Source: Octopus sinensis (Eukaryota). Taken from it: a stretch of DNA of 7,411 bases. Shown here piece after piece: positions 896-7,322 of the stretch (position 1 is its first letter; each line of letters starts with the position of its first letter). A program made the translations under genes and the position numbers. The stretch covers positions 1 to 7,411 of the forward strand of contig NW_021828478.1 in the NCBI RefSeq assembly GCF_006345805.1, given 5' to 3'. The notes under the pieces were generated by a model. That model ran no database searches. It had not been told where the DNA came from and was given only the letters and a program-made list of their open reading frames with translations.

Positions 896-945
<50 letters not shown>
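434..945. repeat. (TA)n array with recurring higher-order unit ATGTGCATATATATGTACAT
   Basis: About 510 bp of TA interrupted repeatedly by GTGCAT/GTACAT motifs (e.g. 481-500, 791-810). Confidence 0.95.
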
Positions 946-948
<3 letters not shown>

Positions 949-1305
949 TAGGAAGAAATGGGCTCCTCGTGAGCGTTTGTCGAAAGCTTGCTGTGCATTT
1001 TGTTGGAGAATTAAGTTCCTGGATTTTCCTGAAGAGAAGGCTGCAAAATGGACTCCTATTCAATCCGAATTAGGGACTTTGCAAGCCTTTGAAACATATG
1101 TAGAAAATAATAAAAGGAATTTTGTTAAATCTTCGTTCAGCTCCATTTCTTCCTACGCTAAATATATAAAACTTCAATTTCCGCACTAAGGCACGGTTTT
1201 TAGGCCCCTCAACCGTGCTTTTTCTGTTGTGATTTTTGCTACCCAGGTATCGGTTATCATTTGAATTATCCGTAATAAGATAATTCATTTATCTACTTCA
1301 ATAAT
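944..1305 (+). mobile_element. Short non-autonomous Penelope-like (pseudo-LTR-type) element carrying a hammerhead ribozyme, inserted in (TA)n
   Basis: (TA)n on both sides; 5' stub 944-961 is a 17/18 inverted copy of 1143-1160; HHR at 1023-1108 followed by AATAAA at 1109-1114; 1091-1296 homologous to element 7052-7322. PLE assignment is inferred from architecture; no RT/GIY-YIG ORF present. Confidence 0.7.
1023..1108 (+). ncRNA. Type I hammerhead ribozyme motif, canonical core
   Basis: Helix I ATTTTC(1023-28)/GAAAAT(1103-08); CTGAAGA(1029-35); helix II GAAGGCT(1036-42)/AGCCTTT(1084-90), extended by GCAAA/TTTGC; GAAA(1091-94); palindromic helix III ACATATGT(1094-1101); GUA triplet, predicted cleavage after 1102. 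Confidence 0.85.
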
Positions 1306-1470
1306 TATATATATATATATATATATAGATATATATATAATATATATATATATATAATATAATATATATATATATATATACATATATATAATATAATATA
1401 TATTATATAATATTATATATATATATATTATATACATTATCTATATATATATATATATGTGTAATATATA
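1306..1470. repeat. Degenerate (TA)n microsatellite
   Basis: Almost exclusively alternating A/T. Confidence 0.95.
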
Positions 1471-1868
1471 CTCTTTTACTTGTTTCAGTCATTTGACTGC
1501 GGCCATGCTGGAGCACCGCCTTTAATCGAGCAACTCGACCCGGGACTTATTCTTTTGTAACCAGTACTTATTCTATCGGTCTGTTTTGCCGAACCGCTAA
1601 GTAACGGGGACATAAACACACAACATCGGTTGTCAAGCAATGCTAGGGGGACAAACACAGACACACAAACATACACGCACACACATATATATATATACAT
1701 ATATACGACAGTCTTCTTTCAGTTTCCGTCTACCAAATCCACTCACAAGGCTTTGGTCGTCCCGAGGCTATAGTAGAAGACACTTGCCCAAGGTGCCACG
1801 CAGTGGGACTGAACCCGGAACCATGTGGCTGGTAAGCAAGCCACTTACCACACAGCCACTCCTGCGCC
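1471..1868 (-). mobile_element. Full-length tRNA-derived SINE, family A (CORE-like, octopus-type)
   Basis: Minus strand begins GGCGCAGGAGTGGCTGTGTGG (A-box-like), then GGTTCAGTCCC (B-box-like), ACCTTGGGCAAGT (resembles MIR/CORE motif), internal TA/TG tract and AGTAAAAGAG tail; collinear with 5234-5680. Confidence 0.92.
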
Positions 1869-1885
1869 TATTATTTATGTAATAG

Positions 1886-1928
1886 TTACAGTTGAAAAGG
1901 TCTCAAACGGCCGAAACCGGTACTGAAA
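1886..1928 (+). ncRNA. Minimal type I hammerhead ribozyme motif with U3-A8 core variant
   Basis: Helix I TTACAG(1886-91)/CTGAAA(1923-28), one mismatch; core TTGAAAA(1892-98); helix II GGTC(1899-1902)/GGCC(1909-12); GAAA(1913-16); palindromic helix III ACCGGT(1916-21); GUA triplet ending 1922. Confidence 0.7.
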
Positions 1929-1983
1929 TGTTCTTTATGAAATTATTTTAGCATTTTCTATCTTGACTTGTTTTCACCCCCCC

Positions 1984-1985
<2 letters not shown>

Positions 1986-2017
<32 letters not shown>

Positions 2018-2190
2018 AGTGTGTGGTGTGTGTGTGTGTATGTATGTATTTGTATATATATATTATATTAATATATATATTATATATATATATATATATA
2101 ATATATATATATATTATGTATAATATATATATATATATATATATAATATATATATAATATATATAAATATATTTATATATATATATATAA
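1986..2190. repeat. (TA)n/(TG)n compound microsatellite
   Basis: Direct inspection. Confidence 0.95.
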
Positions 2191-2296
2191 AATATGTATT
2201 AAAATACACAGCTTTATTTTGAGATTGCTAGTGTTAACAATACTCGCAAATAAATATAGACTGGAGTTGTAGTGCTCCAAGTGTGCTATATTCCAC

Positions 2297-2666
2297 TTCA
2301 ACAGAGGCAATGCAAGCGGAAACTATAGGAACACAATTAAGATTCACACTCGAAAATCAAATACACACATATGTTCATATAGTCTTCCATATTTACAAAA
2401 CGGATATATAAATTCCAAATATATAAATATATATAAATATAAAAATATATATAAATAGATCAAAATCAGTGTTTTACAGTGAATTTACATTTCAAAGTTA
2501 TAAAACACTGATGCAATAAAAATTTGGTATGATAAAAGATTAAAAGAACGTATTAAAATCTGGAAGAATATATGGAAGAATATATAAAATATGTGTATGT
2601 TTTTGATTTTCGAGTGTGGATCTTAATTATGTTCCTATAGTTTCCGCTCGCATTGCCTCCGTTGAA
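2297..2666. repeat. Long inverted repeat (arms 2297-2392 and 2570-2666), probable fold-back or PLE-like insertion
   Basis: Arms of about 96 bp with roughly 10 differences; perfect block AGCGGAAACTATAGGAACA (2315-2333); the unit lies between two TA arrays. Confidence 0.85.
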
Positions 2667-2677
2667 ATTAGAAATAT

Positions 2678-2716
2678 GAATATGTATATATATATATATA
2701 TTATATATATATATAT

Positions 2717-2775
<59 letters not shown>

Positions 2776-2788
2776 TACACGCACACAT

Positions 2789-2846
<58 letters not shown>

Positions 2847-5233: not shown

Positions 5234-5680
5234 GGCGCAGGAGTGGCTGTATGGTAAGTAGTTTGCTTACCAACCACATGGTTCCGGGTTCAGTCCCACT
5301 GCGTGGCACCTTGGGCAAGGGTCTTCTAATATAGCCTCGGACCGACCAAAGCATTGTGAGTGGATTTGGTTGACGGAAACTGAAAGAAGCCCGTCGTATA
5401 TATGTATATGTATGTATATATGTGTGTGATATGTGTGTGTGTGTGTGTGTGTGTGTTAGTGTGTCTGTGTTTGTCCCCCCTCCAACATCGCTTGACAACC
5501 GATGCTGGTGTGTTTACGTTCCCGTAACTTAGCGGTTCAGCAAAACAGACCGATAGAATAAGTACTAGGCTTCCAAAGAATAAGTCCTGGGGTCGATTTG
5601 CTCGACTAAAGGCGGTGCTCCAGCATGGCCGCAGTCAAATGACTGAAACAAGTAAAAGAGTAAAAGAGTAAAGAGTAAAG
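5234..5680 (+). mobile_element. Full-length tRNA-derived SINE, family A
   Basis: A-box-like TGGCTGTATGG (5244-5254), B-box-like GGTTCAGTCCC (5287-5297), CORE-like ACCTTGGGCAAG, internal TA/TG tract, tail (AGTAAA(A)G)x4 at 5651-5680. Confidence 0.93.
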
Positions 5681-5694
5681 AGTAAAATGACCAC

Positions 5695-5921
5695 GGGTGT
5701 GGCTGTGTGGTACGAAGCTTGCCTCCCAACCACATGGTTTCGGGTTCACTCTCATTGCGTGGCACCTTGGGCAAGTGTCTTCTACTATATCTCAGGCCGA
5801 TCAAAGCCTTGTGAGTGGATTTGGTAGATGGAAATAGAAAAAAGTCCATCGTATATGTATATGTATATAAATATGTATTATGTGTGCGAGCGTGTGTGTG
5901 TGTGTGTGTGTGTGTTTGTGT
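5695..5921 (+). mobile_element. 5' half of SINE family A ending in (TG)n
   Basis: GGGTGTGGCTGTGTGG...ACCTTGGGCAAGTGTCTTCTACTATA...AAAGCCTTGTGAGTGGATTTGGTAGA, then TA/TG tract; 3' half absent. Confidence 0.9.
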
Positions 5922-5963
5922 ACATGGTATGACGATTTTTTCTGCTTCAACAATTCAACAATT

Positions 5964-6018
5964 CATGTGGTTGGTAAGCAAACTACTTACCATACAGCCA
6001 CTCCTGCGCCTATACTAT
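5964..6018 (-). repeat. Perfect 55-bp inverted copy of 5226-5280 (SINE head plus its flank)
   Basis: 55/55 identity to the reverse complement of 5226-5280. Confidence 0.92.
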
Positions 6019-6205
6019 ACTGAATCTGTCTGAAAATGCCAGAGAATATAGGTCAGTTTCAAAATATTTATGCTGAGGTCACAAAAAGCAAAATTTGAAA
6101 GGAAAGTTGTCATTTCCTTTAATTTCTCGATAGAAACAAACAGGAGCAAAAGTAAAAAGAAAGAACAATTTACCTTTAGGTTTGAATTATACCGGGTCTA
6201 CCTCT

Positions 6206-6236
6206 GTATTAATATATATATAATATATATATAATA

Positions 6237-6269
<33 letters not shown>

Positions 6270-6300
6270 CTATATATATATATATATATATATATATAGA

Positions 6301-6366
<66 letters not shown>
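6206..6366. repeat. (TA)n microsatellite
   Basis: Direct inspection. Confidence 0.95.
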
Positions 6367-6368
<2 letters not shown>

Positions 6369-6388
6369 TTCTATAATTATAAACATAA

Positions 6389-6760
6389 CTAGAAGTATCG
6401 CCCGGCGTTGCTTGGGTTTGTTTCGACCCTCTAGAATTTTTGAAAAGTAAAAATTTTGCATTATGTAGCTTTAAGTGAACATGTTTCTGGTTGAAATACA
6501 CCGAAAAATGGCGACACAGCAGTAAAAAATCGTAAAAAATAGGGATTTACATAGAAAAAAGCCCCCTTGTGATGTAAATAATTTTTGGTGTTAACATGGT
6601 CCGATTTGAATTTTTCTTCTACAGAAGGAAGAGCAAGCCTTCTGCTATCATACTCTCAATTTTGATCAACTTGCGCCGCATGGTCTCGGAGGTGATAGTG
6701 TTAGTTGAAGGCTACCAAACCTGCCATACTCAGACAACTTCAGCTTTATATATAGAGAGA
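6389..6760 (-). mobile_element. Non-autonomous Helitron (372 bp)
   Basis: Minus strand reads A|TCTCTCTATATATAAAGC...CCCAAGCAACGCCGGG-CGATACTT-CTAG|T: 5' TC, imperfect GC-rich hairpin (6401-6416) 8 nt before 3' CTAG (6389-6392), A|T insertion site, no TSD. Confidence 0.82.
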
Positions 6761-6840
6761 TTATAATTAGGGGTCAGTTAATTGCTTCGCCGCGCACCGA
6801 ATTTAGAAATAGCAGTTTATAAATAAATAAATAACCATGA

Positions 6841-7034
6841 TAGATCGTTAGCCACTACACACATTTTTTCTCTACTAGTTTCTCTCCTTGTTTTTTTCTG
6901 TGTCCCTTTCTGTAGAAGAGCGTAGGCTTGAAACGTAAAAGACTTTTTCTATTCCTGAGCGTTACACTAATACATCTGTTAGTTTTGTGCACTACCTGTC
7001 TTCGTCTTTTGTATTTTTTTTCGTAAACTCTCCC
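6841..7034 (+). mobile_element. Putative PLE-like terminal repeat fragment with variant hammerhead motif, ending at (TA)n
   Basis: Pyrimidine-rich segment containing the HHR-like motif 6906-6941 and ending AACTCTCCC directly at (TA)n 7035-7051. Left boundary uncertain. Confidence 0.5.
6906..6941 (+). ncRNA. Hammerhead-like motif with non-canonical core
   Basis: CTTT(6906-09)/AAAG(6938-41); CTGTAGA-A(6910-17); GAGC-GTAG-GCTT hairpin (6918-29); GAAA(6930-33); palindromic ACGT(6933-36); GUA triplet ending 6937. A6 is replaced by U and there is one extra A. Confidence 0.45.
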
Positions 7035-7051
7035 TATATATATATATATAT

Positions 7052-7322
7052 CAATGGGTGAATGAATTATCCTATGTTTACCGTTACCATGGAAAATTCA
7101 ATGAACCTTTACCAGGGTAGCAAATTCACGCCAAAAACACGATTGAAGCGACCTATCCAAAGGAGAAACTCCGGGTTAATGTGCAATAATTTGTGTAGTA
7201 TAAGTAAATAAATGGAGTTGAACGAAGATGTTAATAAATTCTTTTACTTCGAAACATATGTCAAAAGTAAAGAACTTTTATTAACATCTTCGTTCAACTC
7301 CATTTAATTTATTTATTTATTC
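7052..7322 (-). mobile_element. Second, diverged member of the 944-1305 PLE-like family, with palindromic end
   Basis: 7054-7155 is an inverted homologue of 1201-1296 (AATGAATTATC, GGGTAGCAAA blocks); 7251-7305 parallels 1091-1148; 30-bp perfect inverted repeat 7209-7238/7277-7306; (TA)n on both sides. Confidence 0.72.

What the first reader, a model, noticed from the sequence alone, without database searches (positions are those of the whole stretch)
944..7322. Several distinct HHR-bearing short elements, all docked at (TA)n tracts, within 7.4 kb
Seen: three dissimilar sequences with the GAAA-palindrome-UH signature (1091, 1913, 6930) plus a remnant (7251), each in a short element ending at a TA microsatellite. 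Inference: the genome hosts multiple families of non-autonomous, ribozyme-carrying, microsatellite-targeting retroelements (PLE pseudo-LTR derivatives or retrozyme-like) with diversified catalytic cores. PLE-associated HHRs are known in general; the local density and core diversity are what deserve attention. I cannot verify whether these families are already catalogued.
Basis: partly seen in the sequence, partly recalled or inferred. Interest (0 to 1): 0.8.

Follow-up and report, generated by a model that had tools for sequence, protein, structure and literature searches.

The report
Penelope-type ends, one odd hammerhead core
Three unrelated short repeats in this stretch of animal DNA each carry a hammerhead-shaped, predicted self-cutting RNA motif and end in TA runs; they are likely the truncated ends of Penelope-like jumping genes, a known pattern, but one many-copy family has U in place of a core A that hammerheads normally need.

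Summary
The three hammerheads are real. A: 1023-1108, canonical core, 55-nt stem II. B: 1889-1925, the known U3:A8 core. C: 6906-6941, U at core position 6. A relaxed descriptor finds exactly these three; 0 of 1000 shuffles give three. The bare 'GAAA-palindrome-UH' signature is near chance. The 7251 'remnant' is one arm of a head-to-head pair related to A (7052-7322), whose long arm starts at the predicted cleavage site. A further pair with the same anatomy lies at 2190-2680. Inverted truncated copies, a one-sided tail, (TA)n sites and a minimal dimer-type hammerhead are all published features of Penelope-like elements (PLEs). No RT/GIY-YIG ORF could be linked, so membership is inferred, and non-autonomy is supported only for C. 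One point was not found in the papers searched: in contigs of three public runs, family C keeps U6 (A in 0-0.7% of depth) while the free position 7 varies (17-26%). It is either a many-copy element with a crippled ribozyme or a selected, attenuated variant. Cleavage is untested and the key paper on PLE hammerhead variants (Lunse 2017) could not be read. Verdict: known kind of element, modest novelty.

The parts
946..963 (-). Family A inverted arm: short copy of A's 3' end without the tail, facing outward into the 434-945 TA tract
   Evidence: Reverse complement matches 1139-1159; local score 29 vs shuffle max 20, 0 of 500
964..1305 (+). Family A main copy: hammerhead, 3' part and ~145-nt tail (1160-1305), ending at the 1306-1470 TA tract
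1023..1108 (+). Hammerhead A: helix I 6 bp (1023-1028/1103-1108), canonical core 1029-1035, stem II 1036-1090, GAAA 1091, 6-nt palindrome, predicted cleavage after 1102
   Evidence: the unconstrained two-copy MFE is the double hammerhead, -44.4 vs -36.0 kcal/mol for two monomers
1870..1985 (+). Family B element, 5' side against a SINE head, 3' end at the 1986 TA tract
1889..1925 (+). Hammerhead B: helix I 3 bp, U3:A8 core 1892-1898, stem II 4 bp, GAAA 1913, 4-nt palindrome, predicted cleavage after 1922
   Evidence: active dimer -19.3 vs MFE -21.5; weak Rfam HH9 match
2190..2680 (.). Family D: head-to-head pair between two TA tracts (arms 2297-2392 minus and 2570-2666 plus, 90% alike; ~95-nt tail on the minus arm only); possible decayed hammerhead at 2502-2603
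   Evidence: the hammerhead reading is post hoc and stem II does not fold convincingly
6835..7034 (+). Family C element (~200 nt), many-copy, shared 5' edge, 3' end at the 7035-7051 TA tract
   Evidence: 20,693, 13,462 and 1,108 contig records laid on 6760-7322 from runs X1, X5, X11, depth peaking on the hammerhead; 42-66-fold depth step at 6835
6906..6941 (+). Hammerhead C: helix I 4 bp, core 6910-6916 with U at position 6 (6913), bulged A 6917, stem II 6918-6929, GAAA 6930, 2-nt palindrome, predicted cleavage after 6937
   Evidence: across copies 6913 reads A in 0.67/0.22/0% of depth, 6914 reads T in 17/26/22%, 6929 reads C in 95/97/99%
7052..7250 (-). Family A relative (A2), main copy: starts at the first base after the predicted cleavage site, carries the tail, ends in the 7035-7051 TA tract shared with C
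   Evidence: (score 59; tail alone 47 vs shuffle max 29)
7247..7322 (+).
   Evidence: (hairpin, z -13.4); loose ends in X11 before 7247 complete a stem II 3' strand complementary to A 1036-1045 (2 contigs)

Best explanation
These are three unrelated short repeats, each with a complete minimal type I hammerhead fold and a 3' end at (TA)n, and they are likely the 3' (pseudo-LTR) ends of Penelope-like retroelements, inferred to have been pasted into TA tracts by the element's GIY-YIG nick and target-primed reverse transcription. Inferred steps: the endonuclease nicks TA-rich DNA; reverse transcription starts at one of two sites in the RNA, giving copies with or without the tail; it usually stops early (5' truncation); a second copy is often laid down inverted, giving the head-to-head pairs A, A2 and D. 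The hammerheads would cleave only as dimers, pairing through the stem III palindrome in tandem transcripts, slowly or with help from the element's protein. Copies A, B and C keep sequence on both sides of the cleavage site, so their templates were uncleaved or religated; A2 may come from a cleaved RNA. Family C is likely a short non-autonomous derivative whose hammerhead, with U6, is predicted to be strongly slowed, and the family spread regardless.
For: Shown: hammerhead folds beyond chance; dimer fold is the MFE for A and within 2.2 kcal/mol of it for B; head-to-head pairs with the tail on one arm only, TA outside both arms, in 3 insertions (A, A2, D). Family C is many-copy and runs into TA: X1 depth 1.44 M at 7026-7044 vs 1.24 M just before, and 116 loose ends behind 7051 give a TA consensus at agreement 0.48. 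C also has the bulged base after position 9, majority G10.1-C11.1, palindromic 15.2-16.2 and U-rich leader of the PLE consensus. Published: min-HHRs in PLE terminal repeats, mostly single and truncated, with U3:A8 (PMC4209133); inverted 5'-truncated copy, one-sided tail, (TA)n bias (PMC8557442); two RT start sites define the tail, AT-rich cleavage, hammerhead protein-assisted and not needed for insertion in vitro (PMC11167929).
Against: No RT or GIY-YIG ORF was linked: 0 of 20 window frames reach a Pfam cut-off; homologue searches found none; the profile search never left the queue. Tails here (~145 and ~95 nt) are longer than the 30-40 bp reported. No tandem copy lies in the window. For C the active dimer is 10-11 kcal/mol above the MFE. 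Copy data exist for C and A2 only, not for A's main copy or B. The only raw-read run (X22) laid just 6 of 12.9 million reads, which does not fit a many-copy family in that sample and is unexplained. Five of those reads (2 start places) show A at position 6, together with changes that break stem II and the palindrome.
Confidence: 0.75

Rival explanations
1. Family C's U6 hammerhead is functional and under selection: a natural slow or protein-dependent variant that tunes how much tandem RNA is cut.
For: Among listed variants inside the motif, the only high-frequency one falls on the free position 7 (17-26%); flanking 6894, 6904, 6905 and 6962 vary at 6-37%; stem II closes G-C in 95-99%. A natural A6C variant cleaves slowly, below 0.1 per min (PMC3088659, section 8). 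The PAc hammerhead cleaves only with protein (PMC11167929).
Against: All CUGA single mutants but the 3:8 swap had low activity in a mutational scan (PMC9901934, passages). 25 variant rows were not shown, and laying at 80% likeness may favour conserved words. One founder with U6 would give the same fixed letter without selection.
Confidence: 0.3
2. C, and perhaps B, are monomers shed by non-LTR retrozymes: tandem hammerhead repeats that circularise and are mobilised in trans.
For: C has a shared 5' edge; 8 of the 12 listed joints with intervening letters link the TA tract back to C's 5' part, 6 of them to 6835-6838 (54 rows not shown). Retrozymes are proposed PLE derivatives with many monomers (bioRxiv 10.64898/2026.07.22.740005).
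Against: Those joints are equally explained by TA on the 5' flank of single insertions. No array in the window. The motifs are minimal, not the canonical retrozyme type (PMC7229834, passages).
Confidence: 0.2
3. U6 is kept because the core doubles as a spliceosomal 3' acceptor (pyrimidine tract then UAG at 6913-6915), so that splicing removes the 5' half of the core and disarms the ribozyme in the mRNA.
For: The sequence shows a pyrimidine tract followed by TAG. In D. virilis Penelope the intron ends at helix I of the hammerhead (PMC4209133).
Against: 17-26% of depth has T at 6914, which destroys the AG. No joint is listed for the guessed-RNA run X11 in 11 shown rows. U-rich leaders are general in PLE hammerheads.
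Confidence: 0.08
4. The motifs are chance look-alikes in unrelated repeats (MITE or SINE fragments), and TA adjacency reflects a TA-rich genome.
For: The bare signature is near chance; Rfam gathering scores are not reached; TA tracts are dense.
Against: 0 of 1000 shuffles give three full motifs; stem II complementarity carries over between A and A2 relatives; one-sided tails.
Confidence: 0.05

Closest known systems
Minimal type I hammerheads (min-HHR) of metazoan PLE terminal repeats (Cervera & de la Pena 2014, PMC4209133; text parts 1-2 of 4 and supplement file 2 part 2 read)
   Same: Short helix I, palindromic helix III needing a dimer, bulge after position 9 and G10.1-C11.1 (C), U3:A8 core (B), many single truncated copies, several families per genome
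   Different: C has U6, whereas all 44 alignment rows seen have A6 (their descriptor required it). A has a 55-nt stem II against 7-8 bp described. No cephalopod row was seen.
Endonuclease-bearing PLEs with (TA)n bias: Neptune, Hydra, Naiad (Craig et al. 2021, PMC8557442; passages, section 11, supplement searches)
   Same: Insertion in (TA)n, inverted 5'-truncated copy at the 5' end, tail on one end
   Different: No ORF seen, so the clade cannot be named. Tails are longer. Naiads lack canonical hammerheads. No match of 7 short window motifs to a related element in their supplement (one chance 9-mer in a GC-rich sequence).
Poseidon PAc of Anolis (Frangieh et al. 2024, PMC11167929; parts 1-2 of 4 read)
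   Same: Model for the tail, AT-rich target and uncleaved template; ORF start inside stem II, where family A also has an ATG (1048)
   Different: Family A's frame is broken by 7 stops in 76 codons and found no homologue
Animal non-LTR retrozymes (Cervera & de la Pena 2020, PMC7229834, passages; Li et al. 2026 bioRxiv, part 1 of 5 and passages)
   Same: Short non-coding units with a type I hammerhead, PLE-derived, dispersed monomers
   Different: No tandem array or circle shown here; minimal rather than canonical motifs

Membership tests
Minimal type I hammerhead | Core CUGANGA (or U3:A8) and GAAA ... UH | tested here: met
   A canonical, B U3:A8
Minimal type I hammerhead | A at core position 6 (family C) | tested here: not met
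   U at 6913; A in 0.67, 0.22 and 0% of depth in three contig runs; A in 5 of 5 raw reads from 2 start places in X22
Minimal type I hammerhead | Helices I and II, palindromic helix III able to pair in a dimer | tested here: met
   energetically favoured for A, near for B, disfavoured for C
Minimal type I hammerhead | Self-cleavage after H17 | not testable with these tools
   Needs an assay; contigs cannot show RNA ends
EN+ Penelope-like element | ORF with telomerase-like RT and GIY-YIG endonuclease upstream of the repeat | tested here: inconclusive
   Absent from the window, as expected for truncated copies; no homologue; no assembly
EN+ Penelope-like element | Hammerhead in the terminal repeat near the 3' end | tested here: met
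   Cleavage sites 204, 64 and 98 nt from the 3' TA tract
EN+ Penelope-like element | Inverted 5'-truncated copy at the 5' end | tested here: met
   A, A2 and D; not seen for B or C
EN+ Penelope-like element | Tail on one end only | tested here: met
   A and A2 ~145 nt, D ~95 nt; longer than the 30-40 bp in PMC8557442
EN+ Penelope-like element | Insertion bias for (TA)n | tested here: met
   TA on both sides of A, A2, D; family-wide 3' TA for C; genome-wide enrichment not computed
EN+ Penelope-like element | Partial tandem arrangement forming pseudo-LTRs | tested here: inconclusive
   None in the window; TA-to-5'-edge joints are ambiguous
Non-LTR retrozyme | Tandem array with a hammerhead in at least two consecutive units | tested here: not met
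   0 of 44 TRF rows is such an array; window only
Non-LTR retrozyme | Circular RNA intermediate | not testable with these tools
   No raw RNA reads available

The most novel reading that the evidence does not exclude
Family C is a ~200-nt non-autonomous PLE derivative, among the most abundant hammerhead carriers of its genome, whose ribozyme has been fixed and kept under selection with U at core position 6: a natural attenuated or protein-dependent hammerhead that descriptor searches requiring CUGANGA miss. It would give a direct test of whether PLE ribozymes need to cleave for the element to spread.
Probability: 0.3. Interest if true: 0.6.

Novelty: new variant of a known kind. Interest (0 to 1): 0.38.

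Why it matters
What hammerheads do in Penelope-like elements is open: they are conserved, yet barely active in vitro and dispensable for insertion in the one reconstituted system (PMC4209133, PMC11167929). A many-copy family with a fixed change at a position that mutagenesis calls important is a natural experiment. If it is dead, cleavage is not needed for amplification in vivo. If it cleaves, the core consensus and the genome censuses built on it are too narrow. The A2 junction, starting at the predicted cleavage site, is a single hint that cleaved RNA is sometimes the template. The rest of the finding is an ordinary PLE pattern.

Tried and rejected
No assembly is held, so copy counts, TA enrichment and ORF extension could not be run. 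Pattern scans found 0 loci: family C motif in viral, metagenome and GTDB contigs, SINE motif in the same three; this organism seems absent there. No RNA holder was listed for 6366-7320. Copy variation for A's main copy and for B was not obtained, so their conservation across copies stays open. Pfam on 20 frames gave 3 hits at E 0.04-0.09, about the 2 expected; the SegE GIY-YIG hit on 1073-1288 (minus, E 0.051) lies antisense to the hammerhead and its spacing is not kept in A2, so it was rejected. Protein homologue searches were blank: (word-index searches, weak evidence). The 1.84-billion-protein profile search was still queued. The shared IFVQLH block in three A-type copies follows from DNA similarity and is not counted as coding evidence. 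A hammerhead-like stretch at 3262-3330 (minus) fails both descriptors. ARAGORN finds no tRNA. Rfam miRNA matches are microsatellite or hairpin artefacts below their gathering scores. Paper searches for the C motif, SINE motifs, A6U and U6 core strings (20 of 39 listed, titles and abstract starts only) showed no description of this family or core. Lunse et al. 2017 is not held. The O. vulgaris repeat library (PMC13282606; supplement listed, not read), Dfam, Repbase and the bioRxiv supplements were not seen and may already hold these families. The host name was not established: 'octopus' is my recall of the SINE type, used only to steer the literature search.
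Full report
Setting. The window is AT-rich, repeat-dense eukaryotic DNA: long (TA)n tracts, several copies of a SINE-type repeat and no frame that reaches a Pfam cut-off (0 of 20). No assembly is held. From recall the SINE looks like octopus SINEs; no call names the host, and a paper search for its motifs was blank.

Observation. The signature alone means little: 10 seen, 6.2 expected in 300 dinucleotide shuffles of the 5,657 non-microsatellite bases. 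Full hammerheads are a different matter. A strict descriptor gives 2 (4 of 300 shuffles give one). A relaxed one, chosen after seeing the third motif, gives exactly 3 (44 of 1000 shuffles give at least one, 1 gives two, none three). Rfam finds only B, below its gathering score.

The three motifs. A (1023-1108) has a canonical core, a 6-bp helix I, a 55-nt stem II and a 6-nt palindrome; two copies fold unconstrained into the double hammerhead (-44.4 against -36.0 kcal/mol for two monomers). B (1889-1925) has the U3:A8 core; its active dimer lies 2.2 kcal/mol above the MFE. U3:A8 is described in Schistosoma PLEs (PMC4209133) and elsewhere (PMC3088659). C (6906-6941) fits the PLE min-HHR consensus (bulge after position 9, short helix I, palindromic 15.2-16.2, U-rich leader) except that core position 6 is U; its active dimer is 10-11 kcal/mol above the MFE. 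A, B and C share no sequence similarity beyond shuffles.

The 7251 'remnant' is the short arm (7247-7322, plus) of a head-to-head pair whose long arm is 7052-7250 (minus); both are related to A (scores 57 and 59, 0 of 500 shuffles). The long arm carries a ~145-nt extension that the short arm lacks. Copy A is built the same way: an 18-nt inverted arm at 946-963 ends where the extension begins. A third pair, unrelated at the blastn level, lies at 2190-2680 (arms 90% alike, ~95-nt extension on one), perhaps with a decayed hammerhead (post hoc, stem II unconvincing). All three pairs have TA tracts outside both arms. An inverted 5'-truncated copy, a tail on one end and (TA)n bias are the described PLE insertion pattern (PMC8557442). 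The tail is explained by two reverse-transcription start sites (PMC11167929), although published tails are 30-40 bp. The long arm of the 7052-7322 pair begins at the first base after the predicted cleavage site and overlaps the short arm by 4 bases. That fits reverse transcription to the end of a cleaved RNA followed by a template switch, but it is one case, and the microhomology alone could have driven the inversion. Two X11 contigs supply the letters upstream of 7247, completing a stem II strand complementary to A's 1036-1045.

TA docking. Predicted cleavage sites lie 204, 64 and 98 nt before a tract, and the A2 long arm starts 197 nt before one; 31% of position/strand pairs in this window lie within 205 nt, so four such cases have a naive chance of 0.009, weakened by one shared tract. 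For C the docking is family-wide: depth carries on into the tract and 116 X1 loose ends behind it read as TA at agreement 0.48. The 5' ends of B and C in this window are not on TA, so for them target and templated tail are not separated.

Family C across copies. Of 24 runs listed, 4 were laid on 6760-7322 at 80% likeness. X1, X5 and X11 gave 20,693, 13,462 and 1,108 contig records, peaking on the hammerhead. Summed depth is not a copy number; against 16-184 for listed single X1 pieces, a peak of 7.5 million suggests very roughly 10^4-10^5 copies (inference). Depth rises 42-, 66- and 43-fold at 6835; loose ends there are heterogeneous (agreement 0.45) except for the last few letters, and 6 of 12 listed joints run from TA to 6835-6838. 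This points to a discrete ~200-nt element, though a longer form is not excluded. Position 6 reads A in 0.67, 0.22 and 0% of depth; position 7 reads T in 17, 26 and 22%; 6929 reads C in 95-99%, so this copy's G10.1-U11.1 is private; 6935 shows 5-9% A (a CpG site); flanking sites vary at 6-37%. Variation thus falls on the one free core position while U6 stays. Limits: 25 variant rows were not shown, contigs drop rare variants, and a single founder would also fix U6. Against my reading, the only raw-read run, X22, laid 6 of 12.9 million reads although it shares a species label with X11. Five of them (2 start places, at least 12 other differences) read A at position 6 but also break stem II and the palindrome, probably one decayed locus. 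I cannot explain the low yield. Comparable data for A's main copy and for B were not obtained.

What U6 should do. A natural A6C variant cleaves below 0.1 per min (PMC3088659, section 8), and single mutants of the CUGA turn had low activity in a full mutational scan (PMC9901934, passages). All 44 rows seen of the metazoan min-HHR alignment have A6, by construction of the descriptor. Searches for A6U, for U6 core strings and for the C motif showed no description, but Lunse et al. 2017, on PLE hammerhead variants, is not held and may list it. The most likely reading is a strongly slowed ribozyme on a successful element, in line with hammerhead mutants not impairing PAc insertion in vitro. A selected, protein-assisted variant is the main rival. 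A splice-acceptor overlap is a weak third.

Link to a coding element. Not shown. Family A has an ATG inside stem II (1048), as PAc does, but the frame has 7 stops in 76 codons. Three homologue searches were blank and the profile search was still queued. Six collection scans found nothing. PLEs are reported as abundant and recently active in octopus genomes (PMC13282606, part 1 of 3 and passages; PMC8967140, passages); neither main text mentions ribozymes. That bears on this window only if my recalled host guess is right.

Verdict. Observation confirmed and extended. It works like the 3' ends of (TA)n-biased Penelope-like elements with dimer-type minimal hammerheads, a known kind; membership rests on structure, not on an ORF. 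The retrozyme label is not met in the window. An earlier AI note on another genome (e1-7882047) reached the same reading for a similar cluster; it is a lead, not support. The one departure from the known is the family-wide U6 core of C. Interest 0.38; new variant of a known kind.

Noticed in passing
window 2190-2680: Head-to-head repeat pair between two TA tracts with a one-sided ~95-nt tail; possible decayed long-stem hammerhead at 2502-2603
   Followed up: partly
window 1471-1871 (-), 5231-5667 (+), partial copies at 3354-3479, 4227-4413, 4463-4589, 5696-5850, 5964-6018: Seven full or partial copies of a SINE-type repeat with a tRNA-like head and internal CA/TG run, 74-100% alike; resemblance to octopus SINEs is recalled, not tested
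   Followed up: partly
window 3821-4167 and 4703-5020: Local direct duplication, 84% identical over 347 columns, unassigned
   Followed up: no
window 6388-6755 and 7347-7385: Repeats starting with ACTAG and a short GC hairpin, inside or beside TA tracts; Helitron/Helentron-type non-autonomous ends by recall
   Followed up: no
window 3262-3345: GC-rich hairpin with a hammerhead-like half core on the minus strand; fails both descriptors
   Followed up: partly
window 6760-6830: Separate repeat fragment (X1 depth 18-63 thousand) between the ACTAG-type repeat and family C
   Followed up: no
run X22: Raw DNA run sharing a species label with X11 laid only 6 of 12.9 million reads on a stretch that is abundant in X11; unexplained (label, filter or different organism)
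   Followed up: no
window 1073-1288 (-): Weak Pfam SegE GIY-YIG match (E 0.051) with Y-x10-Y spacing, judged chance
   Followed up: partly
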